A stretch of DNA of 64,000 bases from Myxococcales bacterium (GCA_050288705.1 JBNKEI010000033.1:18407-82406), one strand, 5' to 3'; counted from the first letter of the stretch, positions 36,047 through 52,655 are shown. The notes: generated from the sequence alone by a model not told the origin. Numbers and translations: made by a program.

Positions 36047-36973
36047 CTATACCGCCCTTCCTTTTTCCCGTCGCGTTATAAAGCGTAGTACTATGCGATC
36101 AAGCAAAGCATCGGTTCGTACTTGTTCGTATTCAACCTTGCTCTCTGCGCAAGATTGTTTAATTTTCTGGAGGAAATTATTCATTTCTTCTAGATAGGAA
36201 TCACGAATCTCCCGAGGATCTACTTGCTCGGTGCGCTCATCTTCCATAGAACGGAAAAGAGTGGAGTCTTCAAAAGGGAACTCCAGTTCTGCGGGATCGA
36301 GCACCTGAAAAACCGAAAGCTGGCTCTTTTTGGTACGCCCGAAAACACTTGGCAGAGTTTGCGGCTCTTCGTCAAAAAAGTCAGAAAAAACTATGGTTTC
36401 TAGGGGATGTTGATTCTTTTCACGCAACAACTTAGCCACATCCTGCATATGCGCAGTTCCGCCTCCATGAAGTCCCTCTAAAGCTTTGAGGATTACCGAA
36501 AAATGACCGGCACTGCTTCGGGGAGGAATGATTTCCATTCCGCTACCTCGGCAGATAAGTAATCCAACTGCATCCTGTTGGCGGATTAATAGATAGGCCA
36601 GGGAAGCCGCTAAAACTGAAGCTACGTCCAATTTAGAAAGGTGTTGGGATCGATAATTCATGGAAGCCGATGCATCAACCACTAAAAAAGCTTTTAGGTT
36701 GGTCTCTTGCTCGTACCGTTTTACGTAATATTTGTCGTATCTTCCATAGGAACGCCAATCGATGTGTCGCACTTCATCGCCAGGAGCATATTCCTTGTGC
36801 TCAGCGAACTCGATGGATTGCCCCTGATAAGGGCTACGGTGAATTCCCGATAGAACCCCGTCCACCACTGTTCGAGTCCTTAGCTGAACAGTAGAAAGTT
36901 TGGCTAAAAAGCTCGCGTCAAGAATCATGAGCGGGAGAGTATCGATTTGAGAGAAATTGTAAATAAATGGCAC
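36047..36973 (-). CDS. DUF58-family protein (vWA-like, usually MoxR-associated)
   Basis: Signature FAEHKEYAPGDEVRHIDWRSYGRYDKYYVKRYEQETN followed by VVDASASM. Confidence 0.8.
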   Translation of the reverse strand: MPFIYNFSQIDTLPLMILDASFLAKLSTVQLRTRTVVDGVLSGIHRSPYQGQSIEFAEHKEYAPGDEVRHIDWRSYGRYDKYYVKRYEQETNLKAFLVVDASASMNYRSQHLSKLDVASVLAASLAYLLIRQQDAVGLLICRGSGMEIIPPRSSAGHFSVILKALEGLHGGGTAHMQDVAKLLREKNQHPLETIVFSDFFDEEPQTLPSVFGRTKKSQLSVFQVLDPAELEFPFEDSTLFRSMEDERTEQVDPREIRDSYLEEMNNFLQKIKQSCAESKVEYEQVRTDALLDRIVLRFITRREKGRAV

Positions 36974-37019
36974 CCGTTACTGACCTTGCGCTGGGCTGCC
37001 TGCAAATAAAAGCCGAGTT

Positions 37020-38378
37020 TTAAGCCCCTTCATGCCCGGGTATGACAAAATGAAAAGTGGCGCCGCGTCCTAACTCGCTCTCTGCCCATATTTTACCTCC
37101 GTGAGCATCTACAATTCCTTTGGCAATAAAGAGACCGAGCCCTGTCCCTTGTTTTTGACCTATTCCAGATTTCCAAAATCTCTCAAATAAACGGGGCATG
37201 TTTACTAAAGCAATTCCAGGACCGTTGTCGGAAACGCTAAACCGAACCCCTTGGCCCTCTTTTTGTGCCGACATCTTGATTTTTCCACCTTCGGGAGTGA
37301 AACGAATTGCGTTTCCCAGGAGGTTGGACAGCACTTGCAATAAGCGTTCTTTGTCAGCTTGCAGCGTATAAAATTCGTCGGAAAAAGAAGTTTCTAATTG
37401 TATTGATTTGGAAGAGGCAAGGCTTGCAAAAACATTCGTGGTTTCGTTCAACAAATCGGTAACCGCGCAAGGCGTACGCTGAATAGTGAAACGACCACTT
37501 TCTAGACTTGTCGCATCTAAAAGGCTGCGAATTAAATGTTCCATTTGCATGGAAATACTTTCGATGCCCGATGCATGGCTATGAATTTTATCAAGCGCTG
37601 AGCTTTTGCGCATAAGGGTGGCCTTTATGGTAATTGCGGACAGAGGGTTGCGTAGATCGTGGGCAACCACTGCAAGGAGCTGATCTCTTGCACGAATCGC
37701 TTGCTTGGAAATTTGCAAGGCTTTTTTCTCGTTCATGTGAATAGTCGCTAGCTTCTTGGACGACCACCAAGCAATTGCGCCGCCTGCGAAAATGCTTGTG
37801 ATAACGACTATGAACGCGATTCTAGCGGCAATTTGTGCGTCTTGTCTCATTTCATTTAAAGCAATCGATAATCTCTCTTGGCGAAATAAAAGAAATGCAT
37901 CTATATCTCGATCAAGCGTTATTCTTTTGGGTAGGAGTTCATTTTCAAATCGAGTGCTGACGGTTTCCAGATTTTCCCCCTTTTCTCTAGCAGATAACAA
38001 TTCATCTAAGGATTGAATGTATACGTTAATAGAAGCTATCAGTTGGTTGGATAGCCGAGTGCCCTGAACAGAATCGACTCCACTCCTTACTTGAATAAGC
38101 CCGCGAGAGACTTGGGCTTCGGATTCGCGTGTGCGAGCCAGAAAGGAAGAGCTTCCAGTTAGTAGGAAGCCACGCGCACTAGCAAGAGTTCTTTCTACAT
38201 CTGCCCGAAGCCGTTCTGCGATAACGACTTTTTCCATTTCTCGGTTTATTTCTGCTTCGCGAGCAATAGATGAAGTATTTAGTTTAAGTAATGCGAATAC
38301 TCCTGCTCCCCCAACAACCAAAAGTATAATCAAAAACGTGGCTATCAATCGGCTTGGAAAATTTTCGATTTTCCGCAC
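37020..38378 (-). CDS. Sensor histidine kinase (TM - helical periplasmic sensor - TM - HisKA - HATPase_c)
   Basis: H-box VAHDLRNPLSAI, N-box LLGNAIRFTP, G-boxes DNGPGI and GTGLGL, and two hydrophobic helices flanking a ~170-aa helical domain. Confidence 0.9.
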   Translation of the reverse strand: MRKIENFPSRLIATFLIILLVVGGAGVFALLKLNTSSIAREAEINREMEKVVIAERLRADVERTLASARGFLLTGSSSFLARTRESEAQVSRGLIQVRSGVDSVQGTRLSNQLIASINVYIQSLDELLSAREKGENLETVSTRFENELLPKRITLDRDIDAFLLFRQERLSIALNEMRQDAQIAARIAFIVVITSIFAGGAIAWWSSKKLATIHMNEKKALQISKQAIRARDQLLAVVAHDLRNPLSAITIKATLMRKSSALDKIHSHASGIESISMQMEHLIRSLLDATSLESGRFTIQRTPCAVTDLLNETTNVFASLASSKSIQLETSFSDEFYTLQADKERLLQVLSNLLGNAIRFTPEGGKIKMSAQKEGQGVRFSVSDNGPGIALVNMPRLFERFWKSGIGQKQGTGLGLFIAKGIVDAHGGKIWAESELGRGATFHFVIPGHEGA

Positions 38379-38470
38379 ATAAAACTCCTCGGGTCTTGTG
38401 GATGGATTATTTAGTAATCAAGAGCGCCTTTGGCATGGGGAGCTTTCCCAACATTGACACAGGAAAATCA

Positions 38471-38930
38471 AGGGCATGTCCCTATATCCGACATCGCCGC
38501 TCCGTCATTCCCGCGAAGGCGGGAATCCAGTGGGCACGACTTTGTCAATCGATGATTTGGGGCCAAAGGTCAGCTCGTCCAGGGTTCGTTTTTTCGATGA
38601 GACCCATCTTCCACGCACGACGCCACTTTTTTAGCTGCTTTTCACGACCAATTGCGGTCAACATGTCCTCGAACAACTCATAGTACAACGAGATATGGAC
38701 CTTGTATTTGGCGGTGAAGCCCTGCACGATATCATTTCTGTGTTGCAAACGGCAGCGTAGTTGCGTGACGTTTTCATCCTCGACAATTACCGCTCGCTGG
38801 CGGAGGCCAAGAGATCTCCTCGGGTAAGAACGCAAAACTTCGGACTAAATTATCGCCAATACTCGTGATTCCCGCTTTCGCGGGAATGACGGAGGGCGTG
38901 GCGCCGGATATGGATGGGGACACGCCCTAG
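38471..38930. mobile_element. TIR-flanked GIY-YIG-associated element (copy 1, carries a decayed GIY-YIG ORF)
   Basis: Imperfect ~60-bp terminal inverted repeats, with the left arm beginning at 38471 and the right arm at 38865-38930. Each arm contains the hairpin ATTCCCGC-GAAR-GCGGGAAT (38507-38526 and 38868-38887). A near-identical copy of 38471-38574 recurs inverted at 46671-46776. Confidence 0.55.
38545..38835 (-). pseudogene. GIY-YIG nuclease-family gene, N-terminally truncated or decayed
   Basis: LRCRLQHRNDIVQGFTAKYKVHISLYYELFEDMLTAIGREKQLKKWRRAWKMGLIEKTNP matches the small GIY-YIG (URI-like) family. The N-terminal YVYIL (GIY) strand is missing, and the only start is a weak TTG with no evident SD. 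Confidence 0.6.
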
Positions 38931-39039
38931 TAACTACTGGAGATGCTGTCTGCCCAAATAGCCGGCGAGCATACCGAGGTCGTTGTCAGTATTCCCTTCT
39001 TCCCTTATGCTTCCGACCTGCTAAAAGGAACTCGATTAC

Positions 39040-40668
39040 TTGACAAGGGGAAGACCACTGGAACGCCCAGAAGCATTATTGAAAAGCGCATTGGAGAAGG
39101 TAGTTTTTTTTGAGTGCCGCCTCGATCAGCTCTCATCTGATTTATGCCGTGCTAATAGCGAGATTGAACGGTTAAAATCCGAGCAGAGTAGAGCAACCCA
39201 GCTAGAAATTCAGCTACGCCAGGAACTCGCAGCCTCGGAATCGCGCGCCAATTTGGCCAAACGAGAAAGAGACGAAGCTTTAGAAAATGCCGCGGTCGCT
39301 CGTCAAGAACGAGAGCGTTTTTTAGATCGCCTAATTGAAGCAGAACAGATTAGGCGAGCCGGTGAAGAGAATGAAGGCATTGATTTGGCTTCTTTCATTG
39401 CGGAGCTACGTTCGGAAGTTCTTCACCTTCGAGCTACGGTTTCCGACCAGCATGCACCTTTCCAACCGGTCAGGCCGGCGATTTCAACCACCTGCATTCA
39501 GGCTTCCCAGCAAGACCAAGAACCTCAACCAGAACATCAAGACGCTGGCTCACCATGCCCAGCACCAGCCTCTATTACCGCTGCTTCATTGGAAAATCCC
39601 TCTCCTAAGCCTCCGACCTCTGCTGCTCCCCCGCGAGTATTGGGTTTCCGATCCACTCAAGATGCTGCCACCTTGATGGCTTCCCAAGGAAGAATTGGTA
39701 TTGGGGAGCAGGAGCATCAAGCCCTAAGTATTCGCGCCCGCTTTGAAACGCGCTCGGAAGAAACCCTGTTTTTCCTCTCTTTGCGAGAGCTGGCTGCCCC
39801 CGACAGTATTTCGCGAATGCGTGCCGCTCAAAGGCTGAAGTCGTTAGGTCCACGAGCGGCCCTCCCGGCAATTGCCGCCGCACTTAACACCGAGGAATCA
39901 CCAGAGGTAGTTTGTGCTCTTATGGAAGTCTGTGCCGCTGCAAAAGAAAATTCGATTCTTCCCCTGCTGGAGACCAAATTAGGTTCTGCCTCGGTTGAAG
40001 TGCGCTTGTCGGCATTGGAAGCGGTTTTCCGCCTTCAAGGGCCATCGTGTCTTGCCCGTGCTATGCAGGACAAAAGCTCTCGTGTTCGTCGCCGAGCTGC
40101 GGTACTTGCTGCCGGACAGAATGAGGCTATTTCTGTATTGGAGCAAGCCGCAGGGGACGCAGACGCTTCGGTTCGCCGGGTAGCCGCTCTTGGTCTTGCG
40201 GCAGTAGGATGCGCTCGTGCTCAATCTTGGTTGCTCTCAGCTCTAGATGATAACGATGTTACTGTGCGCCGGGCTGCTGCCAAGGGGCTTTCCCGTTCTT
40301 TTGGGCCGCAAGTATTCGCCGTTGCTGACCTGGATGCTTCCCGGAGGCGCCGCGAGATTCGCCGGCTAGTAGCGCAACCAACGGCAGAGACTACACCGAG
40401 AACGGCGAATGCAACCTCGCTCTCAGCAACTCCATTGGCGACCCTGTCGACAACCTCATCGGGCACGGTTGCAGCTCCCAGCCCACTGCCACATCCGCAA
40501 CTAGAATCGGATATTCTCGACATTGTGTATTCTGCTCTGCGCGGCCAAAGCCAGGAAGAGCTACGTCGCAACTTGAAGGCAGACCAAGAATTGGTGGCCT
40601 CTTCGATTTCTTCGCTATTACAGAGAGGCAAATTAGTTCGGCGCGGCCAACGGTATTTTGTGCCGTAG
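39040..40668 (+). CDS. pomY: PomY-like protein: N-terminal coiled coil, Pro/Ser/Ala/Gln-rich disordered region, HEAT (PBS-lyase-type) repeats, basic C-terminal tail
   Basis: Heptad-rich residues 1-130. Repeated xxVRxxAAxALxxxG HEAT units (SRMRAAQRLKSLG, VEVRLSALEAV, SRVRRRAAVLAAG, ASVRRVAALGLA, VTVRRAAAKGLS). Lies immediately upstream of the ParA-like gene. The TTG start is uncertain. Confidence 0.5.
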   Translation: MTRGRPLERPEALLKSALEKVVFFECRLDQLSSDLCRANSEIERLKSEQSRATQLEIQLRQELAASESRANLAKRERDEALENAAVARQERERFLDRLIEAEQIRRAGEENEGIDLASFIAELRSEVLHLRATVSDQHAPFQPVRPAISTTCIQASQQDQEPQPEHQDAGSPCPAPASITAASLENPSPKPPTSAAPPRVLGFRSTQDAATLMASQGRIGIGEQEHQALSIRARFETRSEETLFFLSLRELAAPDSISRMRAAQRLKSLGPRAALPAIAAALNTEESPEVVCALMEVCAAAKENSILPLLETKLGSASVEVRLSALEAVFRLQGPSCLARAMQDKSSRVRRRAAVLAAGQNEAISVLEQAAGDADASVRRVAALGLAAVGCARAQSWLLSALDDNDVTVRRAAAKGLSRSFGPQVFAVADLDASRRRREIRRLVAQPTAETTPRTANATSLSATPLATLSTTSSGTVAAPSPLPHPQLESDILDIVYSALRGQSQEELRRNLKADQELVASSISSLLQRGKLVRRGQRYFVP

Positions 40669-40677
40669 GACTTATTT

Positions 40678-41634
40678 ATGGACCAGATTTTTTATACTCC
40701 TAGGCGCACCGCACAGCTACTTAGCATTGAGTTAAGAGATCTTCATGCAGTCCTGCGCAAAGATCGATATTCGCCTATCGATATACTGACTTTGCGCCAA
40801 CGCCTGAAAAAAATGCCTCCCAAATTGGGGCCGCGCCGGCAGCTATTTCTCAATTTCAAGGGTGGTACTGGCAAAACCTCGATTTCAACTAGCTATTCTT
40901 TCCGCATGGCAGAAATGGGATACCGGGTATTGCTAATTGACTTGGATAGCCAGGGCCACGCCACCAAATGCTTGGGACTAGAAGGTGAATCGTTCGAACA
41001 AACTTTACTAGACGTTTTAGTAAAAAGGATTCCCATTTCGCAAGTCATTGTACACTCGGGAATGCCACAGCTAGATTTGGTGCCGTCCAATTTATCGATG
41101 AGCACTGCTGATTTGGCGCTGATGCCTTTAGCCGGTCGGGAGTTTAAACTGCGTAATGCCGTCAATCAAATAGTTCAACAATACGATTTGATTGTTATGG
41201 ATGCTCCTCCTTCTTTTGGGCTACTCAATCTGAATGCTTTGATGGCCTCCGATGACCTTTTAGTTCCTGTTTTGGCTGATTTTCTCTCGTTTCATGGATT
41301 AAAACTACTTTTCGAAACTGTAGAGGGCCTGGAGCTGGATTTACAGCATCAACTGGACCATATTTTTATAATTATCAATGCTTTTAATGCTACTTTCAAA
41401 CTCGCTAAAGAGGCGCAAAGTGCGCTTCGAGAACATTACGGTGAATTCTTGTGCAAAACTGTGGTTCGGCAATGCACCAAGTTTGCTTTGGCTTCCAGTG
41501 AAGGTCGGCCAGTCTTTCTAGCCGATCCCGAATCCAAAGGGGCGAAGGACATTCAGTCGTTAATTGTCGAATTGATGCGAAAATTGGGGATAGCCAAAAC
41601 CACTTCTCGCGCGGTATCCGCCGGCAAAAGATAA
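40678..41634 (+). CDS. pomZ: ParA/MinD-family ATPase with a ~55-aa N-terminal extension (PomZ-like)
   Basis: Deviant Walker A FKGGTGKTS, Walker A' LLIDLDSQGH, Walker B IVMDAPPS. Flanked by two coiled-coil proteins. Confidence 0.55.
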   Translation: MDQIFYTPRRTAQLLSIELRDLHAVLRKDRYSPIDILTLRQRLKKMPPKLGPRRQLFLNFKGGTGKTSISTSYSFRMAEMGYRVLLIDLDSQGHATKCLGLEGESFEQTLLDVLVKRIPISQVIVHSGMPQLDLVPSNLSMSTADLALMPLAGREFKLRNAVNQIVQQYDLIVMDAPPSFGLLNLNALMASDDLLVPVLADFLSFHGLKLLFETVEGLELDLQHQLDHIFIIINAFNATFKLAKEAQSALREHYGEFLCKTVVRQCTKFALASSEGRPVFLADPESKGAKDIQSLIVELMRKLGIAKTTSRAVSAGKR

Positions 41635-41657
41635 GCAAGCTGTAATTGGAGGAATCG

Positions 41658-42614
41658 ATGCGCAAAGCTTTTGACGCCAATGTCTCTCGTTCCAAACCTC
41701 GGCTGAGAATGGGAACTGTAATCTCTACTGCTGAACCTTCTCGATCACCAGAGCCAGAGGAGTTCCTTGAAGAAGAGGAAATGTCTGCCGAGCAAGACGA
41801 TTCTGGCGAGGCGTCCGATTCGCTATCGTCCCAGCAATCGATCGAGGATGAGGAGGACTTCGACCAAGAAGAAGATGATTCTTTGTCTGAAAGCGCGCAG
41901 TCAGCCACAGTCTTAGCGGAAACAGGCGCCACCGAAATTGCCCTCGACCCGCAAGAGCGCCGTGAACGACTGCGCGAACGGCTTAAGGCAGCGACTGCCA
42001 AAGTTCAGCCCACCGAACCGACTCCCCAAACCCCTGCGGAAGCGCGAAGCTCGGCTCTTGCTCTGGTAGGACACTTGCGCCAGGAGCTGGAAAACGCTCA
42101 CCAGCTCAATACTTCACTAGCCAAAGATTTGGAACAAGCGCGAAGCGATCTGGGTCGAGCTGCCGAAGAAGCACGCATGCGCACTGCGGAAGCTACCCGC
42201 ATGACCAACGAGGTTAATGAGCGCGCTACGCTCATGGAGGAACTAGGAAAAGAAATGGCCAGCCTAGAAACCGAAAGAGACGATGCTTTGGTGGAGTTGC
42301 GAGCCGTTCGCGCAGAAGTAGAAAAGGAAACCGCACTGCGCAAGGAACTGGAAAAGAAACTTGCTGAACGCGACGCAGAATTGGCGGAAACTCTAACTGA
42401 AGAAGAGCGATTAGCAACCGAACTAGAAGCACGCAATATTGAGCTGCGAAGATGCCAACTATCCCTAGATACCCTTTCGGAAGAAAGAGACCGCCTGGCC
42501 AAACAAGTTGCTGAAATTACCAAGGAACGGTCAGACCTACTCGATTCCCAAAAAGCTTTAGACGAAATTCATCGGGCTTTAGCAGAAGCTCGCGCTCGTT
42601 TTGGCTCTCGCTGA
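41658..42614 (+). CDS. pomX: PomX-like protein: basic N-terminal peptide, acidic tract, long C-terminal coiled coil
   Basis: The ATG at 41658 is preceded by a GGAGGA SD; the track start at 41646 is a TTG. N-terminus MRKAFDANVSRSKPRLR, then an E/D/S-rich tract, then ~190 aa of heptad-rich sequence. Confidence 0.5.
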   Translation: MRKAFDANVSRSKPRLRMGTVISTAEPSRSPEPEEFLEEEEMSAEQDDSGEASDSLSSQQSIEDEEDFDQEEDDSLSESAQSATVLAETGATEIALDPQERRERLRERLKAATAKVQPTEPTPQTPAEARSSALALVGHLRQELENAHQLNTSLAKDLEQARSDLGRAAEEARMRTAEATRMTNEVNERATLMEELGKEMASLETERDDALVELRAVRAEVEKETALRKELEKKLAERDAELAETLTEEERLATELEARNIELRRCQLSLDTLSEERDRLAKQVAEITKERSDLLDSQKALDEIHRALAEARARFGSR

Positions 42615-42657
42615 TGATTTGCGCGCTTGACTTACTGGGGTGGAGACTTTCTTGCTT

Positions 42658-43779
42658 TTAACTATCTTTGCACTGCATAATTTCTTGGTAAGCCTTAAGC
42701 AACAATTGATTACGCCGCTCGGGAGCAAAATTAACCTTTGCCCGTTTTCGGGCATTTCCTCCCATGGCCAACCTTATTGCTTTGTTCTTTCCTAAAAGAA
42801 GCATGGCCTCGGCTAACTGCCGCGCATTTGGCTCTACCACCATTCCGTCTTTTTCTTCTCTGATTAGTTCCGCCATTGCCCCCCGATTGGCTACAATAAC
42901 CGGCTTGCCGCAGGCCATAGCTTCTAAAACCGCCCGACAAGTACCGTCGTTGCCTTCTGCCAGCCATATTTTTACGTCCAGTGCCCGATAAGAAGCCACC
43001 AAGTGGTCACCGGTTTGATACCCAACAAAATGTATTCGCTTTTCCAATGCCCATTGTTTTGACAACGTTCGTAACGGCGATTCGTATTCTCCCCTACCAA
43101 TGATTACCAAATGCGCCTGACTAAGTTCACCAGCAACGCGCGCAAATCCGCGAATGATTTGTTCGTGAAGACGTTCCACTTTAATACGGGAGATTATTCC
43201 AAAGATTAATGCTTGGTCATCAATTCCCCATTCGGCGCGTTTTGATTTCTCTTCACCAGGGCAGAACCTTTCCGCGTCTACTCTTCCCGGTAAAACATGA
43301 ATTCGTTGGGGTTCTATCCCGTGACATTCGTTTAATTGGCGCGCGTATTCCTGACAGGAAACTATTAGACCGTCTCCAGTACGCAATCCCCTTCCCCGAA
43401 ACCACCCCGGACGAATAGACCGAGCGATTTCTGCCGATCGCACTAAGGTAGGACGCAGTCGTAGCCCGAGCATAGCTAGCCAAGCTATAGTATGGTCGTG
43501 GGCGAACCGGCAATGCACCAGATCGGCTTGCCGTAAGCGGCTACGCAGCCTAATTACATCACGCACTATTTCTCTCAAGGTAGGCTTGGGGCAAAGAGTA
43601 AGCTCTTTCATTACCGGAAAGCCTGCTTGCTCAATTGCCGCCACATAGTTTCCAGGGCGCCGAGTATCACACCCAAACATGACTTCGTGACCTGCTTGCC
43701 TTAAGCCTTGAGCATCTTCTAGGCATAACTGGGCTGGTCCAGTCACGGAAGAAGTGGACAGCAACATCAGAATTTTCAC
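42658..43779 (-). CDS. Glycosyltransferase, GT4 (RfaG/WaaG-like) family
   Basis: 373 aa, GT-B fold pattern with a C-terminal EGNDGTCRAVLEAMACGKPVIV (E-x7-E-like) block. 4-nt overlap with the upstream hldC-like gene. Confidence 0.8.
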   Translation of the reverse strand: MKILMLLSTSSVTGPAQLCLEDAQGLRQAGHEVMFGCDTRRPGNYVAAIEQAGFPVMKELTLCPKPTLREIVRDVIRLRSRLRQADLVHCRFAHDHTIAWLAMLGLRLRPTLVRSAEIARSIRPGWFRGRGLRTGDGLIVSCQEYARQLNECHGIEPQRIHVLPGRVDAERFCPGEEKSKRAEWGIDDQALIFGIISRIKVERLHEQIIRGFARVAGELSQAHLVIIGRGEYESPLRTLSKQWALEKRIHFVGYQTGDHLVASYRALDVKIWLAEGNDGTCRAVLEAMACGKPVIVANRGAMAELIREEKDGMVVEPNARQLAEAMLLLGKNKAIRLAMGGNARKRAKVNFAPERRNQLLLKAYQEIMQCKDS

Positions 43780-44264
43780 TTACTTAGACCTTTTTCCCGA
43801 AGGCAGTCAATGATCGCAGTGGAAGAGTGATTTTTGGGGTCGCCAGCAATGGCTACTTGGCCACCGTATGCCAGAACCTCTTCTCGCTCGGGAATGCTTT
43901 CCTGGCAGTAATCAGTCCCTTTGACATGAAAATCAGGACGCAAGGCGCGCAATATTCTCCGAACGTTTGGTTCATCAAATAAAAGTACGTAGTCTACACA
44001 TGCCAGCGCCGCCACCAGTTCTGCCCTTTCCGCTTCGGGCACAATTGGCCGCCCTTCCCCTTTGTATGCGCGAGTAGAGGCATCACTGTTTATGGCCACC
44101 ACCAGAATATCCGCTATTGTTTTTGCTGCTTGCAGATAACGTAGGTGTCCTACGTGTAATAAATCGAATACTCCGTTAGCCAGTGCCAAAGTTTTTCCCT
44201 GCTTACGCGCTGCGCCAACCAAGTCTATCAGGGTCTCCAGTCGCCCGATCTTGTGCACACTCAT
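43776..44264 (-). CDS. hldC: D-beta-D-heptose 1-phosphate adenylyltransferase (RfaE domain II, stand-alone)
   Basis: Cytidylyltransferase-family signature NGVFDLLHVGHLRYLQ, 162 aa. Confidence 0.85.
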   Translation of the reverse strand: MSVHKIGRLETLIDLVGAARKQGKTLALANGVFDLLHVGHLRYLQAAKTIADILVVAINSDASTRAYKGEGRPIVPEAERAELVAALACVDYVLLFDEPNVRRILRALRPDFHVKGTDYCQESIPEREEVLAYGGQVAIAGDPKNHSSTAIIDCLREKGLSK

Positions 44265-44268
44265 GCCA

Positions 44269-45297
44269 TTACCCTAATTCTTCTTTTAATTCCTGATAGA
44301 ACACGGTGGCGGTGCCTGATTTGAGAACCTGCAACGCCCCAGCGATGTTTGCCAATTGCGCTGCGCTCGAAAGATCGGCGCCCGCAGAAAGAGCCAGAGC
44401 TAGGGTAGCCCCCACCGTATCTCCCGCACCAGTTACATCTACCGCTTCTTGATCGCCATGAGCGGGAATAAACTCAATTTCTCCATTCTCTACTACCGCC
44501 ATCCCGTAGCGCCCACGAGTAACCACCATTGATTGCCCGTTCATCCGCGATTGCACCACTTGGATAGCTTGTGTAAAACGCTCTTCAGTATCGGCGCGTA
44601 CTCCTGCCAACGCTGCCAATTCTGGCTCATTTGGCTTGAGTATGGTTGCTCCCGCAAATTCACCCAGTTGATACCGGCTATCCACGCAAACAGGAATTCC
44701 TTCTTTGGCAATGGTCAGTATTTCGGCAATCACTGGTTTTCCTAACACTCCCGAGCCATAATCAGAAATCAATATTGACTCAGCTTGGCGAGCATATTCG
44801 CGCACCATGGCTGCTAATTCGTTTTCTAGTGAGGCCGGATAGGCTCCTTCACACCCTCGATCCAAGCGCAACATTTGCTGCCGTCGAGTGTTATGTCCAC
44901 CGGCCAAAATGCGTGTTTTGGTCTCTGTAGGAAGTGAGGATTCAGGTGAAAGAAGTTCGATACCAGCTTCGCGACACGAACTGCGTAAATGGCCACCCAT
45001 TTCATCGTTACCAACATAGCCCAGAGCAGTCACTTGCGCGCCAAGGGCCTTCAAGTTGGCAGCCGCATTGCCCGCTCCACCAAGCTTTACCTCGGAGGAT
45101 TCGTAGCGAACAATCAGCACCGGGGCCTCCCGAGAAACCCTGTCCGATTCACCAAAAATGTAGTGATCGGCTACCAGATCGCCTATTACAAGAATTTTTC
45201 GGCCTTTAAACCCTTTTAGAAGAGTCTCTAGTCGATAGTCATCGTTTCTTGATTGAACTGTATGCACAAGAGAGATTAAAGGGGGCTTTGGGCTCAA
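44269..45297 (-). CDS. hldA: D-beta-D-heptose 7-phosphate kinase (RfaE domain I, PfkB family, stand-alone)
   Basis: PfkB/ribokinase pattern: LVIGDLVADHY, GGAGNAAANL, C-terminal DVTGAGDTV. The start is uncertain (TTG at 45297 or GTG at 45267). Confidence 0.85.
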   Translation of the reverse strand: MSPKPPLISLVHTVQSRNDDYRLETLLKGFKGRKILVIGDLVADHYIFGESDRVSREAPVLIVRYESSEVKLGGAGNAAANLKALGAQVTALGYVGNDEMGGHLRSSCREAGIELLSPESSLPTETKTRILAGGHNTRRQQMLRLDRGCEGAYPASLENELAAMVREYARQAESILISDYGSGVLGKPVIAEILTIAKEGIPVCVDSRYQLGEFAGATILKPNEPELAALAGVRADTEERFTQAIQVVQSRMNGQSMVVTRGRYGMAVVENGEIEFIPAHGDQEAVDVTGAGDTVGATLALALSAGADLSSAAQLANIAGALQVLKSGTATVFYQELKEELG

Positions 45298-45336
45298 GAG
45301 TCAACCACGCTCTTTCTTTAAGTTAGGTTTTTATCA

Positions 45337-46350
45337 ATGACTTCTCACCGATTTCTTTCTTGCCCCCCTTCACGCCTACCTGGCCCCAATGAGCCGTGCT
45401 GGTGTGGAAGTGGAAAAAAGTATAAACGCTGCCATTCTTCCCAGGATCAGGAATCTTCGCGAAAGCGTACTAAAGCCATTTTTAGACACAAGCCAGTACA
45501 GCCTGGAGTGGTAAGCCCACGAAGAAAAGTTCCTGAACATATCCCTATGCCTGATTACGCAAAAAGCGGTAGTCCTAGTGACTCTCCTGTCGACGAAAAA
45601 ATGTCGGGAGAGCGACTAGACCGCATGCGCCGCGCATGCAAAGCTGCCGCTATGGTGCTGCAAACAGTTGGCTCTCAAGTTTGTCCGGGAATATCTACCG
45701 ATGCGCTTGATGCCTATGCCCACCAGGAATACATCCGCTTGGGAGGGTACCCAAGCACTCTCAACTACCACGGATTCCCCAAATCAATTTGCACCTCGGT
45801 AAACGAAGTGATTTGCCACGGAATACCCGACAGCCGTCCTTTGGAAGAAGGCGATATTGTCAATCTGGATATCTCCATTTTTCTGGAAGGCATGCATGGC
45901 GATTGTTCGGCCACCTTTTTGGTCGGTCAAGTAGATGAAGAGTCTAAATGTTTAGCCCGAGTGACTAAAGAATGCATGATGCTCGGCATCGAGGCGATAA
46001 AACCCGGACGCCCTATTAAGGATATTGGTAGGGTTATTGAAGCGCACGCTTCTCGACATGGGTACGGCGTAGTACGCGCTTATTGTGGTCATGGAATTGG
46101 TGAGAAATTCCATACTTCCATCCAGATACCTCATCATCTCGATGAAACTGCTACTCAAAAAATGCTGCCTGGCATGGTCTTTACCGTAGAACCGATGATT
46201 ACCGCAGGCACCTGGGAATCGCGAGTTTGGAAAGACGGTTGGACAGCGGTCACTGCTGATGGGAAGCGGACTGCTCAGTTCGAACATACCGTCCTAGTTA
46301 CCGACCAAGGGGCGGAAATTCTGACTATTCCTTCCGGCTCCTCACCATAA
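45337..46350 (+). CDS. map: Methionine aminopeptidase type I with an N-terminal SEC-C zinc-binding motif and a eukaryote-like linker
   Basis: CWCGSGKKYKRCH SEC-C motif, a VSPRRKVPEHIPMPDYA linker, and a MetAP core (ICHGIP, DIVNLDIS, GHGIG, FTVEPM, QFEHTV). Confidence 0.92.
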   Translation: MTSHRFLSCPPSRLPGPNEPCWCGSGKKYKRCHSSQDQESSRKRTKAIFRHKPVQPGVVSPRRKVPEHIPMPDYAKSGSPSDSPVDEKMSGERLDRMRRACKAAAMVLQTVGSQVCPGISTDALDAYAHQEYIRLGGYPSTLNYHGFPKSICTSVNEVICHGIPDSRPLEEGDIVNLDISIFLEGMHGDCSATFLVGQVDEESKCLARVTKECMMLGIEAIKPGRPIKDIGRVIEAHASRHGYGVVRAYCGHGIGEKFHTSIQIPHHLDETATQKMLPGMVFTVEPMITAGTWESRVWKDGWTAVTADGKRTAQFEHTVLVTDQGAEILTIPSGSSP

Positions 46351-46413
46351 GCTTATTCAAAATAGCCAAATGCAAAACCCGCCGGCAAATGGGGTTTGGG
46401 ACGAGAGCCCCGA

Positions 46414-46776
46414 CTAGGGCGTGTCCCTATATCCGGCACCACGCACCCGGCACCACGCCCTCCGTCATTCCCGCGAAAGCGGGAATCCAGGGGGCGCCAC
46501 AGTCGAACGACCAGCTTGCATTCCGATCTGACCTTTGGTTTAGGCTTTGGATGGCGTTACGATTGTCGTTGGACGAGAGTAAGTAGTCTCAGATTCTTGG
46601 TTTCTTGAAATCGCGTCGTAGGCCAGGAAGGCTCTTTCGGAGACCGGAATTTCATGGAGGCGTTGGATGGGCTGACCTTTGGCCCCAAATCATCGATTGA
46701 CAAAGTCGTGCCCACTGGATTCCCGCTTTCGCGGGAATGACGGAGCGGCGATGTCGGATATAGGGGCATACCCTAG
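46414..46776. mobile_element. TIR-flanked GIY-YIG-associated element (copy 2, ORF-less derivative, inverted relative to copy 1)
   Basis: 46414-46490 resembles the reverse complement of 38865-38930. 46671-46776 is a near-identical reverse complement of 38471-38574, including the last 10 codons (ADLWPQIID*) of the GIY-YIG gene. Hairpin cores are at 46467-46486 and 46719-46738. Confidence 0.55.
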
Positions 46777-46877
46777 AGCGACGGCGAGCTTTGCTCGCCC
46801 AAAGCGGAAAAACTGGGGTTTTGCAATTGCCTCAAAAGATACTCCCCAACCATGCTTTAGAATGCCAACTTGTCCCC

Positions 46878-47915
46878 ATGAGCATTCCTCGGGCCCTCCA
46901 AATCACTGCCGCTATTCTAATTTTGGCGGGCCTGGTTTGGGGAGTAGTTAATGCGCCCTTTGCGCTGGGCCTGACTTATGGGTCGGCTATTTTGGCCATG
47001 GCCATTGACCGCGGAGTGCAATGTCTTGGCAGAAAGGGTGTACCTAGGACCGCGGGAATTGCTTTGCTACTTTCTATTATCCTTTTGCTGGTCGCCGGAA
47101 TTTTGGCCCTCGCCGGCCCCATCTTAATTTCTCAAATCCGTTACTTCATTGCATTCGTGCCTCAAGCCATCGACCGGCTTCAGGATACCCCCTGGTTCGA
47201 AAGAGTAGCCCGAGAAATTGATCTTGCTGACCAATTACAACGCTTGAAGCAGCAGATTCCTACCATTTTGACCCGCACCATAGATGCGGCGTTGGGTGCA
47301 GCGTTTCAGGTGCTTTCCTGGATTTTGTTTGCAGTAACCGTATTCTTTCTAACTGTTTTCATGTTGGTTTTTGGCCGTAAGTTTCTCCAAAGAGTTTTGG
47401 AGCAGTTGCTACCCCAAAGTAAGAAACGTTATCAACAAGTACTACATAATATCTATCGTAGTGTTGGTGGATACATATTTGGTTTGGGATTAGTAGTTTT
47501 GTTAAATGCTACTGCTACAACTACTTTCTTGGCGATAATGGGCATACCTCTTTTCTTGCTACTAGGGTTGTTGAGTGGGTTCTCTACAATCATTCCTATT
47601 GCAGGTCCTACTTTTACCGCACTAGTGGTTTCATTAATTGCTTTGACAGAAAGCGGTTGGCCCAAAGCACTGGGAGTCATTATATTTCTGGTCATTTACC
47701 AGCAATTTGAAAACCAAGTTATTGGTCCTTTGATTTACCGAAAAACCGCACGTATAAATCCTTTAGCTTTGGTAGTAGGGCTTTTATTTCTTTCTGAACT
47801 TTTTGGATTTGCAGGAGCGGTTCTTTCTGTTCCCACCATGGCGATTCTCCAGGTTCTTTATCTGGAGATAATCCATTCAATAAAGCCTGCAGTTTCTACC
47901 GACCAGTCGAATTAA
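46878..47915 (+). CDS. AI-2E family transporter (PerM/UPF0118)
   Basis: Polytopic membrane protein with the conserved C-terminal block PLLLLGLLSGFSTIIPIAGP...FENQVIGPLIYRK. The start at the ATG 46878 avoids reading through the repeat element. Confidence 0.85.
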   Translation: MSIPRALQITAAILILAGLVWGVVNAPFALGLTYGSAILAMAIDRGVQCLGRKGVPRTAGIALLLSIILLLVAGILALAGPILISQIRYFIAFVPQAIDRLQDTPWFERVAREIDLADQLQRLKQQIPTILTRTIDAALGAAFQVLSWILFAVTVFFLTVFMLVFGRKFLQRVLEQLLPQSKKRYQQVLHNIYRSVGGYIFGLGLVVLLNATATTTFLAIMGIPLFLLLGLLSGFSTIIPIAGPTFTALVVSLIALTESGWPKALGVIIFLVIYQQFENQVIGPLIYRKTARINPLALVVGLLFLSELFGFAGAVLSVPTMAILQVLYLEIIHSIKPAVSTDQSN

Positions 47916-50666: not shown

Positions 50667-52526
50667 ATGCGCAGATACATTTCTGGGTATGCCCCGCTAG
50701 GCGGTCTTTTGGCATTAGCCCTGGTATTTTCCGGATGTAACGGAGGAGGAGAAGAAGAATACGAAATTCCAGTAATGGCTCCCGATCCATTAGCTGCCGA
50801 TTATCCTGGTCTCGATGAGTTATCGCGGCCTATTACCGCATTGTCCGCTGCTTGTACTTGGGCCTCCACGGGGTCAGGAACAGTAACGATTACTGTTGAT
50901 GATGGGGAAACCGCCATAGTAAGCAGAAATACCGCCGGCACAATTTTTGTAAACAGTCAGACTTGTACTGGCTCGGGCACTACCGCAACCAGCAGCAATA
51001 CTAAAATTATTAATATTTCTTCCCAAGCAGCTAACGAAAGCGAAACTGTAATCATTGATTACTCCTTTGGAACCTTTGGTCTGGGTACTACTACCGCCGG
51101 TACTACTGGTATTCGCATTGATTTAGGAACTAGTGGAACTGATGCGGTTAAAATACGTGGTAGTGAAAATGCCGATAATTATTCCTTGGGCAAAGATACT
51201 TATTACTACATTGCGGCAAATACTGACAGCTATCCCGATGTTGTCATGCTTAATACCCCAGACACCATTGTGATCAGTGCTGGCCCGGGCGCTGACCGGG
51301 TTTATGCGGGCGGTGGTTATGGAACCGGCAATGCGGTAGACATGACCCTCACCATTTATGGTGGTGAAGGAAATGACACCCTTACTGGCGGTACTGCCGC
51401 AGATACCATAAAGGGCGGCACTGGTAATGATTTGATTACCGGCAGCACTGGCGATGATTCGCTATACGGTGAAGGCGGAAACGACACTTTTGGCGAAGGA
51501 AGCTCTAATAGCGGGACTGACTATTTCTCTGGCGGCGATGATACCGATACGGTTGATTACTCTTCCCGCACCCTCGCGCTAACCATATCGATAACCGGTA
51601 CTGGCGCATCTGGTGTTTCCGGAGAAAACGACAATATTCAGACTAACGTAGAAAACGTCAAAGGCGGAAGCGCTGCCGATGTAATCACTGGAAGCAGCTC
51701 AGCAAATACAATTTATGGTTACGCAGGAAACGACACCATATACGGCAAAGCAGGAGACGACAGTCTTTATGGTGGCGATGGCAATGATACTTTTTATGAA
51801 GACGGCACTGAACCTAATGGTTCTGACGTGATTAGTGGCGACGGCGGCACTAGCGACTTAGTGGACTACACTTCGCGAACGGGAGCACTAACTATCACCA
51901 TTAACAACACTGCGAACGACGGTGAATCCGGCGAGAATGACAACATCATGACCACGGTAGAGCACGTAAAAGGATCTACTGTTGGTGACACCATCACTGG
52001 AAGCAGCTCCGACAACACCATCTGGGGTTACGCAGGCAATGACACCATCGACACGGGTTCCGGTGCGGACGTTATCTATGGCGGCTTAGGCGATGATGTT
52101 CTGACTGGCGGATCCGGCGATGATACCTTCTACGAAGAAGGCTCGGGAACCAATGGCGCTGATACCTTTAACGGTGGAACTGGTGTCGATACGGTGGACT
52201 ACACTTCGCGTACTGCGGCAGTAACGGTAACCATGGACGGCGCAGCAGCTAACGACGGTGAAAGCTCCGAGACCGATGATGTAAAGGATGACGTAGAGCG
52301 ACTCAATTGTCCCACTGGCTCTTACGTCTGCACTGTAACCGGTAATGCCCTGAGAAATGAGATTACTGGCGGCGACGGCGATGATGTCTTAACTGGCGGC
52401 GACGGTGATGACATCTTAGACGGCGGCGCTGGCGACAATTGGCTCGCTGGCGGTGACGGTGACGGTGATGTCTGCTTTAGTAGTCCCACCGGCACCACAG
52501 GCACCGAGACTGGTTGCGAGCTATAG
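50667..52526 (+). CDS. RTX-repeat (hemolysin-type Ca-binding beta-roll) lipoprotein, paralog 1
   Basis: Signal peptide with lipobox VFSG-C. Many GGxGxDxL/I nonapeptides arranged in three ~95-aa modules. GGGAG SD. Confidence 0.85.
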   Translation: MRRYISGYAPLGGLLALALVFSGCNGGGEEEYEIPVMAPDPLAADYPGLDELSRPITALSAACTWASTGSGTVTITVDDGETAIVSRNTAGTIFVNSQTCTGSGTTATSSNTKIINISSQAANESETVIIDYSFGTFGLGTTTAGTTGIRIDLGTSGTDAVKIRGSENADNYSLGKDTYYYIAANTDSYPDVVMLNTPDTIVISAGPGADRVYAGGGYGTGNAVDMTLTIYGGEGNDTLTGGTAADTIKGGTGNDLITGSTGDDSLYGEGGNDTFGEGSSNSGTDYFSGGDDTDTVDYSSRTLALTISITGTGASGVSGENDNIQTNVENVKGGSAADVITGSSSANTIYGYAGNDTIYGKAGDDSLYGGDGNDTFYEDGTEPNGSDVISGDGGTSDLVDYTSRTGALTITINNTANDGESGENDNIMTTVEHVKGSTVGDTITGSSSDNTIWGYAGNDTIDTGSGADVIYGGLGDDVLTGGSGDDTFYEEGSGTNGADTFNGGTGVDTVDYTSRTAAVTVTMDGAAANDGESSETDDVKDDVERLNCPTGSYVCTVTGNALRNEITGGDGDDVLTGGDGDDILDGGAGDNWLAGGDGDGDVCFSSPTGTTGTETGCEL

Positions 52527-52567
52527 CGGAAGTCAAGCCGCGCAGCACTGCCCCCCCTTGCGCGGCC

Positions 52568-52589
52568 GCCGACGAGATAGCTCGTCGGC
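52568..52589 (+). other. Stem-loop upstream of the terminator
   Basis: GCCGACGAG-atag-CTCGTCGGC, a perfect 9-bp stem. Confidence 0.5.
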
Positions 52590-52594
52590 AATAC

Positions 52595-52631
52595 GCGAGG
52601 CCCGCCTCCTAAGGTGGGCTTCGCCTTTTTT
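52595..52631 (+). terminator. Rho-independent terminator between the RTX paralogs
   Basis: GCGAGGCCCGCC-tcctaa-GGTGGGCTTCGC (12-bp stem with two G:U) followed by CTTTTTT. Confidence 0.75.
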
Positions 52632-52655
52632 CAAACCTTTGTCTTAGGAGAGAAC

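What the first reader, a model, noticed from the sequence alone, without database searches (positions are those of the whole stretch)
38471..46776. Two inverted copies of a GIY-YIG-associated TIR element bracket a 7.5-kb gene block at a strand-switch point
**Seen in the sequence**
- 38471-38574 and 46671-46776 are near-identical reverse complements (about 100 bp with a handful of mismatches).
- 38865-38930 and 46414-46490 are a second, more diverged, reverse-complement pair.
- The two composite elements (38471-38930 and 46414-46776) are therefore in opposite orientation.
- They enclose the Pom-like triad, the GT4/hldC/hldA heptose cluster and map.
- Copy 1 also marks the end of a ~38-kb run of exclusively minus-strand genes.

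**Inference**
- Long inverted repeats at this spacing are substrates for homologous-recombination inversion of the intervening segment.
- Alternatively, the elements may simply have inserted independently into intergenic regions.
- No transposase is present, so composite-transposon mobility is not supported.
Basis: partly seen in the sequence, partly recalled or inferred. Interest (0 to 1): 0.55.

Follow-up and report, generated by a model that had tools for sequence, protein, structure and literature searches.

The report
Two decayed Ssn-nuclease hairpin repeat elements
The two inverted repeats are real, but they are broken copies of a repeat unit described in 2025 (a small GIY-YIG single-strand DNA nuclease gene flanked by "NTS" hairpins) lying in two intergenic gaps of a myxobacterial genome, and nothing indicates they ever flipped the genes between them.

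Summary
Arms 38468-38581 and 46664-46777 are 114 nt long and 95% complementary. A second pair (38867-38907 / 46447-46487) is 41 nt at 98%. Together they define two TIR-bounded elements in opposite orientation: E1 (38471-38931) and E2 (46414-46777).

The inner part of every TIR is a hairpin. Three of the four match exactly the Neisseria NTS motif CGTCATTCCCGCGMAVGCGGGAATCYRG of Chenal et al. 2025 (PMC11893778), the ssDNA target that flanks ssnA, a ~95-aa GIY-YIG ssDNA nuclease gene.

- E1 keeps only codons ~31-97 of ssnA; both catalytic tyrosines are gone.
- E2 keeps only the last 11 codons.

A relative with 89-93% nucleotide identity (JGI metagenome 3300038402) lacks E2 at the map/AI-2E junction. 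It also lacks E1, together with the neighbouring histidine kinase gene, at the DUF58/HEAT junction. Both junctions there have the same orientation as in the window. GC skew of the enclosed genes equals that of same-strand genes outside.

So these look like independent insertions (or losses) of decayed Ssn/NTS units. Inversion and composite-transposon readings are not supported.

Verdict: a new member of a known kind, of low to moderate interest. The lineage-specific outer TIR, the presence/absence difference and a 5'-truncation series hint at mobility, which has not been demonstrated for this class.

The parts
38471..38931 (-). E1: composite element (A-end TIR, truncated ssnA, filler, B-end TIR). 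The strand given is that of the ssnA remnant.
   Evidence: TIRs and inverted repeats. Logan contig L002 stops at 38500, 30 nt into the repeat, and L008 starts at 38884. Homology with the repeat-free relative L092 resumes at about 38936-38947, 5-15 nt beyond the CCCTAG end.
38471..38540 (+). E1 A-end TIR: outer module AGGGCATGTCCCTATATCCGACATCGCCGCTC followed by the NTS hairpin at 38503-38530.
   Evidence: Exact match to the NTS and SRM motifs. The same end, finishing in ...GGGACATGCCCTAG, is followed by unrelated flanks in E1, E2 and L090.
38545..38745 (-). ssnA pseudogene remnant: codons ~31/32-97 plus the stop. The GIY and YIG tyrosine motifs are missing.
   Evidence: Match to the profile of 26 homologs at positions 30-96 of 97, E = 8e-34. 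tblastn gives 95% identity over consensus residues 32-97. Pfam GIY-YIG is only partial and below cut-off. See also the alignment.
38746..38863 (.). E1 filler between the B-end hairpin and the truncated gene; not related to ssnA.
   Evidence: Alignment score to the L090 5' coding region lies inside the shuffle distribution. No match to any fetched locus.
38864..38931 (-). E1 B-end TIR: NTS-like hairpin at 38864-38891 (tail CACG, so it fails the strict motif) plus an outer module ending in CCCTAG.
46414..46777 (+). E2: gene-less derivative in inverted orientation (B-end TIR, filler, last 11 ssnA codons, A-end TIR).
   Evidence: It is absent from the orthologous spacer in relative L091.
46463..46490 (+). 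E2 B-end NTS hairpin.
   Evidence: Exact NTS and SRM match.
46665..46700 (+). Last 11 codons of ssnA (GWADLWPQIID) plus the stop codon.
   Evidence: tblastn 11/11 identical.
46715..46742 (-). E2 A-end NTS hairpin.
   Evidence: Exact NTS and SRM match.
46368..46822 (.). Full segment missing from the empty site of the relative: the E2 core plus about 40 nt on each side. It has a 10-nt terminal inverted repeat (TGCAAAACCC / GGGTTTTGCA) and TGCAA at both junctions.
   Evidence: L091 aligns to window 45721-46367 and to 46809-47797; junctions were read. The two extra flanks, joined, fold at -22.4 kcal/mol, z = -2.4. Logan contig L008 ends at 46392.
38932..46413 (.). The 7.5-kb enclosed gene block: Pom-like triad, GT4, cytidylyltransferase-like, PfkB kinase, map. 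It is not part of either element.
   Evidence: Pfam. The block forms a separate 7509-nt Logan contig. Its orientation is the same in the repeat-free relative. Its GC skew is equilibrated to the present orientation.
37020..38378 (-). CHASE3 histidine kinase gene next to E1, absent together with E1 in the relative.
   Evidence: L092 joins window 36978 to about 38947 through an unrelated 56-nt spacer.

Best explanation
E1 and E2 are two decayed, non-autonomous copies of an Ssn/NTS unit. The intact form of that unit is a ~95-aa single-domain GIY-YIG nuclease gene (ssnA) flanked by two inward-facing NTS hairpins, which belong to the CGTC-tagged REP class. In this Myxococcota lineage each hairpin is extended outward by a 32-55 nt lineage-specific TIR module ending in CTAG. 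From the published biochemistry of Neisseria and Wolbachia homologs, Ssn binds the NTS hairpin only in single-stranded DNA and nicks a few nucleotides 5' of it. Here that position would fall inside the outer TIR module, on the top strand at one end and the bottom strand at the other. Neither copy can make the nuclease: E1 lacks the N-terminal 30 codons carrying both catalytic tyrosines, and E2 keeps only 11 codons. They could act only as targets for an Ssn supplied in trans, if the genome still has one. The two copies lie independently in two intergenic spacers, one divergent (HK/HEAT) and one co-directional (map/AI-2E). Their inverted orientation looks incidental. They did not create the strand switch and have not inverted the 7.5-kb block. 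Shown: the repeat anatomy, the NTS identity, the ssnA homology and truncation, the absence of the elements in a relative, conserved junction orientation, and equilibrated skew. Inferred: cleavage by Ssn at these sites, insertion rather than loss as the direction of change, and mobility.
For: - Three of the four hairpins match the NTS and SRM motifs exactly; none occurs elsewhere in 64 kb, against 0.18 expected (motifs from PMC11893778).
- The E1 ORF matches a profile of 96-aa GIY-YIG proteins at positions 30-96, E = 8e-34. Those homologs carry PF01541 and have Y, Y and E at the same spacing as Nm SsnA Y6/Y17/E64.
- Of 80 related metagenomic loci, 57 have NTS-like hairpins nearby and 35 have them on both sides. 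The canonical geometry is NTS(+) about 40 nt before the start and NTS(-) just after the stop, the same as in E1.
- Other copies exist. L090 has an identical A-end and a different flank. Two further near-identical but truncated ssnA products were found, P0001 (95% identical) and P0007 (94%), both from NCBI. Logan contigs of the same population (99.97-99.99% identical) break 30 nt into the E1 A-end TIR and inside the E1 B-end hairpin.
- Relative contig L091 has a 78-nt map/AI-2E spacer without E2. L092 has DUF58 next to HEAT, without HK and E1. Both junctions are oriented as in the window.
- Plus-strand GC skew is -0.012 for block plus-strand genes and +0.007 for outside plus-strand genes; it is -0.139 for block minus-strand genes and -0.139/-0.140 for outside minus-strand genes.
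- No transposase, recombinase or second ssnA lies in the block or within about 10 kb.
Against: - Assignment to the cd10448 clade could not be tested directly, and no Nm SsnA sequence was available for a pairwise comparison.
- No intact ssnA of this lineage was seen: L090 has a frameshift in an A-run, and P0001 and P0007 are truncated. The in-trans activity is therefore hypothetical.
- Insertion cannot be told from precise loss without an outgroup. TGCAA at both E2 junctions fits either a target-site duplication or a microhomology-mediated deletion.
- The segment missing in the relative is about 90 nt longer than the TIR-defined E2, and E1 is missing together with a whole HK gene. Neither site is a textbook clean empty site.
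- The exact outer TIR was found nowhere in the genome, metagenome or viral collections, so genome-wide copy number is unknown.
Confidence: 0.8

Rival explanations
1. The inverted pair acts as a recombination substrate. RecA-mediated exchange between the 114-nt arms inverts the 7.5-kb block, either as the event that produced the present strand-switch arrangement or as an ongoing flip-flop in the population.
For: The arms are 95% identical with a 56-nt perfect run, which from general knowledge of RecA recombination is long enough for rare exchange. The Logan assembly leaves the block as a separate contig, so that assembly does not fix its orientation.
Against: The repeat-free relative has DUF58|HEAT and map|AI-2E junctions in the window's orientation, so the arrangement is ancestral. 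GC skew of the block's plus- and minus-strand genes equals that of the same-strand genes outside; a recent inversion would swap these values and a long-term flip-flop would give intermediate ones. No invertase or recombinase gene is present. The second pair of arms is only 41 nt.
Confidence: 0.05
2. The two elements are the arms of a composite transposon, or the borders of a mobile island that brought in the Pom-like, heptose and map genes.
For: Inverted terminal copies bracketing cargo is the classical composite-transposon layout.
Against: The same block sits between the same neighbours in a relative that lacks both elements. No transposase is present and both ssnA copies are dead. map and the Pom-like cell-division genes are core genes; the triad is conserved in distant Myxococcales MAGs. 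Block GC content and skew match the surroundings.
Confidence: 0.02
3. The outer CTAG-ended TIRs belong to an unrelated MITE or IS (for example an IS5- or IS630-like element that duplicates CTAG or TA). That element captured, or was invaded by, an ssnA-NTS unit, and its movement depends on a conventional transposase encoded elsewhere rather than on Ssn.
For: In most related metagenomic units the inverted repeat stops at the NTS: of 20 canonical units, only L013 shows an analogous non-NTS outer repeat. The core ends read CTAG|GG...CC|CTAG in E2. The published Ssn cut site, a few nt 5' of the NTS, does not coincide with the element ends, which lie 32-55 nt further out.
Against: The outer module is found only joined to the NTS in all five termini seen. 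The outer 23-mer occurs nowhere else in the window, and the terminal motif, alone (viral) or joined to the NTS core (genome, metagenome), gave no hit in three large collections. No candidate transposase was seen. CTAG or TA as a duplication is ambiguous: the E1 left end reads CAAG.
Confidence: 0.1
4. Assembly artefact: the MAG contig was mis-joined or mis-oriented across multi-copy repeats, so the bracketing geometry is not real.
For: Logan contigs break at E1 on both sides and 22 nt short of E2. The source is a short-read MAG.
Against: The order and orientation of all four flanking junction genes are reproduced in independent contigs of a related population from another sample. The Logan contigs are 99.97-99.99% identical to the window up to the repeat edges.
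Confidence: 0.03

Closest known systems
Ssn/NTS (SRM) units: ssnA flanked by NTS hairpins (Chenal et al., Nat Commun 2025, PMC11893778)
   Same: Hairpins identical to the published NTS consensus. A ~95-aa single-domain GIY-YIG gene lies between two inward-facing hairpins, with the same gene-to-hairpin distances as in 35 of 80 related loci. The paper itself notes the IS-like NTS-ssnA-NTS architecture.
   Different: Found in a Myxococcota MAG rather than Neisseria, Wolbachia or Rhizorhabdus. Both copies are dead (5'-truncated gene, and a gene-less derivative). The TIR extends 32-55 nt beyond the NTS with a lineage-specific module ending in CTAG. There are only four hairpins in 64 kb and no clustering around genes. 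Presence/absence between close relatives is seen here, whereas the paper does not show mobility.
CGTC-tagged REPs (Di Nocera et al., BMC Genomics 2013, PMC3733652) and Neisseria dRS3/NIME repeats
   Same: CGTC tag at one end, a GC-rich palindromic stem-loop and a CCA tail. The dRS3 core ATTCCC-N8-GGGAAT is present in all four hairpins. As in NIMEs, the hairpins bound other repeated sequence.
   Different: Not high-copy or arrayed in this window. Here the hairpins occur only as the inner parts of two discrete TIR-bounded units.
REPtrons / RAYT-REP (REPIN) systems and TIRtrons
   Same: A small nuclease or transposase-like gene flanked by inverted hairpin repeats that also occur as gene-less doublets. 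The nuclease recognises ssDNA hairpins. Gene-less derivatives resemble REPINs or MITEs.
   Different: The associated protein is a GIY-YIG nuclease, not a HUH/Y1 (IS200/IS605-type) transposase. Strand-transfer activity has never been shown for Ssn.
Bacterial MITEs (for example Correia elements of Neisseria)
   Same: Size of 360-460 bp, TIRs, intergenic location, decayed or no coding capacity, presence/absence between relatives, and a possible short target duplication.
   Different: No cognate transposase family has been identified, and the duplication is ambiguous (TGCAA at the extended E2 ends; CTAG or TA at the core ends).

Membership tests
Ssn/NTS (SRM) unit | Hairpin matching NTS CGTCATTCCCGCGMAVGCGGGAATCYRG, or the degenerate SRM motif | tested here: met
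   38503-38530(+), 46463-46490(+) and 46715-46742(-) match both motifs exactly. 38864-38891(-) fails only in the 3' tail (CACG). Expected count is 0.18 per simulated window.
Ssn/NTS (SRM) unit | Single-domain GIY-YIG protein of about 94-100 aa (CDD cd10448 clade) encoded between the hairpins | tested here: inconclusive
   The E1 ORF aligns to a profile of 96-aa PF01541 proteins at positions 30-96, E = 8e-34. CDD or clade assignment and a direct comparison with Nm SsnA were not possible. NCBIfam has no model and the PDB has no relative.
Ssn/NTS (SRM) unit | Catalytic residues equivalent to Nm SsnA Y6, Y17 and E64 | tested here: not met
   Full-length homologs have Y, Y and E at the same 11- and 47-residue spacing (residues). 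E1 lacks both tyrosines, since its N-terminal 30 codons are replaced by unrelated sequence. E2 has none of the three. Both window copies are therefore pseudogenes or derivatives, not functional members.
Ssn/NTS (SRM) unit | Hairpins on both sides of the gene, inverted, with the CGTC side outward | tested here: met
   Seen in E1 and E2. The same geometry occurs in 35 of 80 related loci.
Ssn/NTS (SRM) unit | Site-specific cleavage of ssDNA only, a few nt 5' of the hairpin | not testable with these tools
   This is biochemistry. It is known only for Neisseria and Wolbachia homologs.
CGTC-tagged REP | Short palindromic stem-loop tagged by CGTC at one end, with a short CCA-like tail | tested here: met
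   The sequence reads CGTC-ATTCCCGCG-AAGG/AAAG-CGCGGGAAT-CCA in three of the four hairpins. The definition is from PMC3733652.
MITE / non-autonomous TIR transposon | Terminal inverted repeats with discrete ends shared by copies in different flanks | tested here: met
   The A-end finishes at ...CCCTAG in E2 and L090 (...CCCTTG in E1), followed by three unrelated flanks. Outer-TIR z scores are 4.0 and 6.6.
MITE / non-autonomous TIR transposon | Target-site duplication | tested here: inconclusive
   TGCAA lies at both junctions of the ~450-nt segment absent from L091, while CTAG or TA lies at the core ends and the E1 left end reads CAAG.
MITE / non-autonomous TIR transposon | Filled versus empty orthologous sites | tested here: met
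   E2 is absent in L091 at 93% flank identity. E1 is absent in L092, but together with the HK gene. The direction of change (gain or loss) is not resolved.
MITE / non-autonomous TIR transposon | Cognate transposase in the genome | not tested
   Only 64 kb of the genome is available. There is none in the window.
Composite transposon | Cargo moves with the two flanking elements, and at least one arm encodes a transposase | tested here: not met
   The block is present with the same neighbours in a relative lacking both elements. There is no transposase and both ssnA copies are dead.
Programmed invertible segment (invertase switch) | Site-specific recombinase gene in or next to the segment, with both orientations present | tested here: not met
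   No recombinase domain occurs among the block and flanking proteins. Orientation is conserved in the relative and the skew is equilibrated. Population heterogeneity was not testable without reads.

The most novel reading that the evidence does not exclude
The NTS-ssnA-NTS unit is a true transposable element whose GIY-YIG ssDNA nuclease is, or initiates, the mobilising activity. That would be a new class of bacterial transposon or homing-like element that also generates gene-less MITE-like derivatives. Three observations here would be its footprints: presence/absence of E2 (and of E1) between relatives about 90% identical; discrete ends shared by copies in unrelated flanks; and a series of 5' truncations of ssnA all anchored at the A-end. 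That series runs from L090 (full length) through P0001 (from about codon 18), E1 (about codon 31) and P0007 (about codon 53) to E2 (about codon 87). It would fit a copying process that starts at the Ssn nick next to the A-end hairpin and aborts at variable length.
Probability: 0.15. Interest if true: 0.8.

Novelty: new member of a known kind. Interest (0 to 1): 0.3.

Why it matters
On its main claim the finding is ordinary. The inverted repeats are dead copies of a repeat/nuclease system described in 2025, and they neither caused nor mark an inversion. They matter in practice because they break short-read assemblies.

The modest added value lies in three points:
- A clean filled/empty comparison for an Ssn/NTS-derived element between close relatives.
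- A lineage-specific extension of the TIR beyond the NTS.
- An A-end-anchored truncation series of ssnA.

All three bear on an open question raised by the Ssn paper: whether NTS-ssnA-NTS units are, or once were, mobile elements, and whether the long-known CGTC-type REPs finally have their mobilising enzyme.

Tried and rejected
- Exact-pattern scans with the outer terminal motif (joined to the NTS core for the first two, the terminal motif alone for the third) found nothing in genome contigs, metagenome contigs or viral contigs. Genome-wide copy number could not be obtained.
- Contigs encoding the two closest paralogs, P0001 and P0007, are not on record.
- Synteny in Myxococcales MAGs found with the HEAT protein (44-51% aa identity) is limited to the Pom-like triad, so it is useless for the inversion test.
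- Look-ups of the AI-2E and FlgD proteins returned only the source contig, so the Logan contig to the right of E2 could not be examined.
- The idea that the E2 interior and the E1 5' part are diverged ssnA sequence was rejected. Profile and DNA alignments score no better than shuffles, and there is no match to any fetched locus.
- The idea that the strand switch is a replication origin or terminus was rejected. GC skew stays at or below zero across the window and follows gene strand only.
- Rfam, the PDB, NCBIfam and a plasmid BLAST (a single 37-nt NTS hit in a Photobacterium replicon) added nothing.
- Promoter and terminator scans of both elements gave nothing above shuffles. The one promoter-like site, at 38983-39011, lies outside E1 in sequence conserved in the relative.

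Full report
**Observation**

The repeat finder reports arms 38468-38581 and 46664-46777 (114 nt, 95% complementary, 8082 nt apart) and arms 38867-38907 and 46447-46487 (41 nt, 98%). The six mismatches in the long pair leave a longest perfect run of 56 nt. The hairpin core occurs four times and the outer terminal 23-mer three times in 64 kb, with 0.00 expected from shuffles.

Each element carries its own terminal inverted repeats (I3, I4, I5; alignment). There are therefore two composite elements: E1 at 38471-38931 and E2 at 46414-46777. They are in opposite orientation, because the remnant of the internal gene is on the minus strand in E1 and on the plus strand in E2. Pfam confirms the gene content between them: HEAT-repeat protein, ParA-like ATPase, a third ORF without a family, GT4 glycosyltransferase, cytidylyltransferase-like, PfkB kinase, and M24 methionine aminopeptidase.

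**Anatomy**

Reading inward from either end, a TIR has two parts:
- An outer module, CTAGGGCRTGTCCCTATATCCGRCA plus 9-24 further nt.
- A 28-nt hairpin, CGTCATTCCCGCGAA(G/A)GCGGGAATCCAG.

The two ends differ. The "A-end" lies directly after the stop codon of a small minus-strand ORF in E1, and the "B-end" lies upstream of that ORF.

The E1 ORF (38545-38835) matches a profile built from 26 homologous 95-100-aa GIY-YIG proteins, but only at positions 30-96 of 97 (E = 8e-34). The first 30 codons, which carry the GIY and YIG tyrosines, are replaced by about 120 nt with no detectable similarity to the gene. E2 retains only the last 11 codons (GWADLWPQIID) next to its A-end. Its 173-nt interior is unrelated to the gene. 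No other copy of the gene exists in the window.

**What it is**

A full-text search led to Chenal et al. 2025 (PMC11893778). They define the Neisseria NTS as CGTCATTCCCGCGMAVGCGGGAATCYRG and a broader "Ssn-related motif" (SRM). They show that these hairpins flank ssnA, a 94-aa single-domain GIY-YIG gene, in many phyla: 71% of homologs have an SRM nearby and 42% have one on both sides. They also show that SsnA binds the hairpin only in single-stranded DNA and cuts a few nucleotides 5' of it.

Three of the four hairpins in the window match both the strict NTS and the SRM pattern. The fourth deviates only in its tail. Nothing else in 64 kb matches, against 0.18 expected. The hairpin also fits the older descriptive class of "CGTC-tagged REPs", which were said in 2013 to lack a dedicated transposase (PMC3733652). 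It contains the dRS3 core ATTCCC-N8-GGGAAT as well.

In the homolog alignment the two tyrosines and the glutamate have the same spacing as Y6/Y17/E64 of Nm SsnA. Among 80 related loci fetched from metagenomes, 57 have NTS-like hairpins nearby and 35 have them on both sides. The usual geometry is NTS(+) about 40 nt before the start codon and NTS(-) just after the stop, exactly as in E1.

**What is particular to this lineage**

In most related units the inverted repeat ends with the NTS. Of 20 canonical units with enough flank, only L013 has an analogous non-NTS outer repeat, and three others have extra NTS pairs. The 32-55-nt outer module here is therefore lineage-specific, and it is statistically real (z = 4.0 and 6.6). 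The exact outer TIR was not found in any searchable collection.

A third copy, L090 from an ENA metagenome, has the N-terminal coding region intact and an extra A in an A-run. Its A-end is identical and finishes in ...GGGACATGCCCTAG, followed by a flank unrelated to those of E1 and E2. It has no B-end within 234 nt upstream.

Two further near-identical gene products from NCBI, P0001 and P0007, start at about codon 18 and about codon 53. The N-terminus of P0007 (VSNSWFLE) matches a reading frame of the E2 interior. Five copies therefore form a 5'-truncation series anchored at the A-end, and none is verifiably intact.

**Source and assembly**

The window comes from MAG GCA_050287685.1, contig JBNKCJ010000004.1. 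The nearest named relatives of its HEAT protein are Myxococcales MAGs.

Logan contigs from SRR36185847 are 99.97-99.99% identical to the window and break at the elements:
- One contig ends at 38500, 30 nt into the E1 A-end.
- The 7.5-kb block is its own 7509-nt contig, covering 38884-46392.

The repeat is thus multi-copy in that sample, and short-read assemblies fragment there.

**Test of the inversion idea**

Two contigs from JGI metagenome 3300038402 come from a relative at 89-93% nucleotide identity.
- L091 runs from the 3' half of map through a 78-nt spacer into the AI-2E transporter gene. It aligns to window 45721-46367 and 46809-47797. E2, plus about 40 nt on each side, is absent.
- L092 runs from the DUF58 gene (window 36221-36978) through a 198-nt spacer into the HEAT gene (window 38947 onward). 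The histidine kinase gene and E1 are both absent. Homology resumes 5-15 nt beyond the CCCTAG end of E1.

In this repeat-free relative both junctions have the window's relative orientation. The divergent strand switch and the block's orientation therefore predate the elements.

GC skew gives independent support. Plus-strand skew is -0.012 for the block's plus-strand genes and +0.007 for plus-strand genes outside. It is -0.139 for the block's minus-strand genes and -0.139/-0.140 for minus-strand genes outside. A recent inversion would swap these values, and a long-term flip-flop would give intermediate ones. The skew profile also shows no origin or terminus at the switch. No recombinase or transposase lies in or near the block. 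The same comparison rules out a composite transposon, because the cargo is present without the arms.

**Insertion or loss**

The E2 comparison is the closest thing to a filled/empty pair. The empty site reads ...AAAACAGCCGCTT-TGCAA-TTGCC.... The filled site has TGCAA at both junctions and a 10-nt terminal inverted repeat, TGCAAAACCC...GGGTTTTGCA. This fits a 5-bp target duplication, but it fits a microhomology-mediated deletion equally well.

The missing segment is about 90 nt longer than the TIR-defined core. The two extra flanks, once joined, fold into a hairpin (-22.4 kcal/mol, z = -2.4). The Logan contig ends at 46392, as if sequence from about 46363 onward were also repeated. One reading is that the E2 core sits at a CTAG in the loop of a second small palindromic repeat. 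This remains unresolved.

**Mechanism**

I commit to the following with about 0.8 confidence. These are non-autonomous, decayed Ssn/NTS units lying independently in two permissive intergenic spacers, and their inverted arrangement is incidental. If an active Ssn exists elsewhere in the genome, it would bind the hairpins when the DNA is single-stranded and nick a few nt 5' of each. That position falls inside the outer TIR module, on opposite strands at the two ends. Cleavage and any biological effect, such as limiting recombination of incoming ssDNA as in Neisseria, are inferred from the published family and not shown here.

**Novelty and score**

This is a new member of a known kind. The main claim (inversion at a strand switch) is not supported, and the element class was published in 2025.

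The residual interest lies in the presence/absence difference, the discrete shared ends and the A-end-anchored truncation series. Together these keep open, at perhaps 15%, the reading that Ssn/NTS units are mobile and that the GIY-YIG ssDNA nuclease initiates their spread. That would be a notable new class of transposon or homing-like element, and it would give the CGTC-type REPs their missing enzyme.

Overall interest: 0.3.

Noticed in passing
window 37020-38378 (with 36979-38946 as the variable segment): The CHASE3 histidine kinase gene next to E1 is absent from the orthologous DUF58/HEAT spacer of the ~90%-identical relative L092, where an unrelated 56 nt stands in its place. The HK gene and E1 together form one ~1.97-kb presence/absence segment whose right edge coincides with the E1 B-end. 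HK GC content is 0.447 against 0.484 for the window.
   Followed up: partly
window 46368-46413 and 46778-46822: The segment missing at the empty site of L091 extends about 40 nt beyond each CTAG end of E2. The two extra flanks have a 10-nt terminal inverted repeat (TGCAAAACCC / GGGTTTTGCA), TGCAA at both junctions, and an internal perfect hairpin GGCGAGC-TTT-GCTCGCC. Joined, they fold at -22.4 kcal/mol (z = -2.4). Logan contig L008 stops at 46392, as if sequence from about 46363 were repeated elsewhere. This may be a second small palindromic repeat into whose loop the E2 core inserted.
   Followed up: partly
E1 38545-38745; E2 46665-46700; L090 235-504; proteins P0001 and P0007: Five near-identical copies of this ssnA lineage form a 5'-truncation series, all keeping the 3' end and the A-end TIR: L090 full length (with a frameshift in an A7 run), P0001 from about codon 18, E1 from about codon 31, P0007 from about codon 53, and E2 from about codon 87. 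The N-terminus of P0007 (VSNSWFLE) matches a frame of the E2 interior (VVSDSWFLE). No intact copy was seen.
   Followed up: partly
L038, L066, L073, L080, L086 (metagenome loci): Some ssnA-like genes sit in arrays of 8-12 NTS-like hairpins. These are either alternating in orientation at spacings of about 40-60 nt (L066, L073), like BIMEs or REPIN doublets, or mostly in direct orientation at about 120-160 nt (L038).
   Followed up: no
window 39040-42614; L003-L006: The HEAT-repeat protein, ParA-like ATPase and third (Pfam-less) ORF form a triad that is the only part of the block syntenic in distant Myxococcales MAGs (44-75% aa identity). This is consistent with a PomY/PomZ/PomX-like cell-division positioning module. 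Some homologs of the HEAT protein are named 'Wire protein' in UniRef.
   Followed up: partly
whole window: GC content is only 0.48, low for Myxococcota. GC skew is dominated by gene strand (about -0.14 for minus-strand genes and about 0 for plus-strand genes), implying one replichore across the whole window with the minus strand leading.
   Followed up: partly
window 54687-55318 and 50667-54509: Precomputed Pfam on the source contig shows a PIN/MazE-type toxin-antitoxin pair and, upstream of it, two adjacent ~620-aa HemolysinCabind (RTX-type) proteins downstream of the flagellar FlgD/FlgE genes.
   Followed up: no
window 42733-42795 (+): Weak sub-threshold Rfam match to suhB/mmgR (22.4 bits against a gathering score of 41, E = 0.41), overlapping the 3' end of the GT4 gene on the opposite strand. 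Most likely chance.
   Followed up: no
window 38983-39011 (+): A sigma-70-like promoter match (TTGTCA-17-TATGCT) lies just outside E1, in sequence conserved in the relative L092. It is plausibly the native promoter of the HEAT/Pom-like operon, left intact by the E1 insertion upstream.
   Followed up: no
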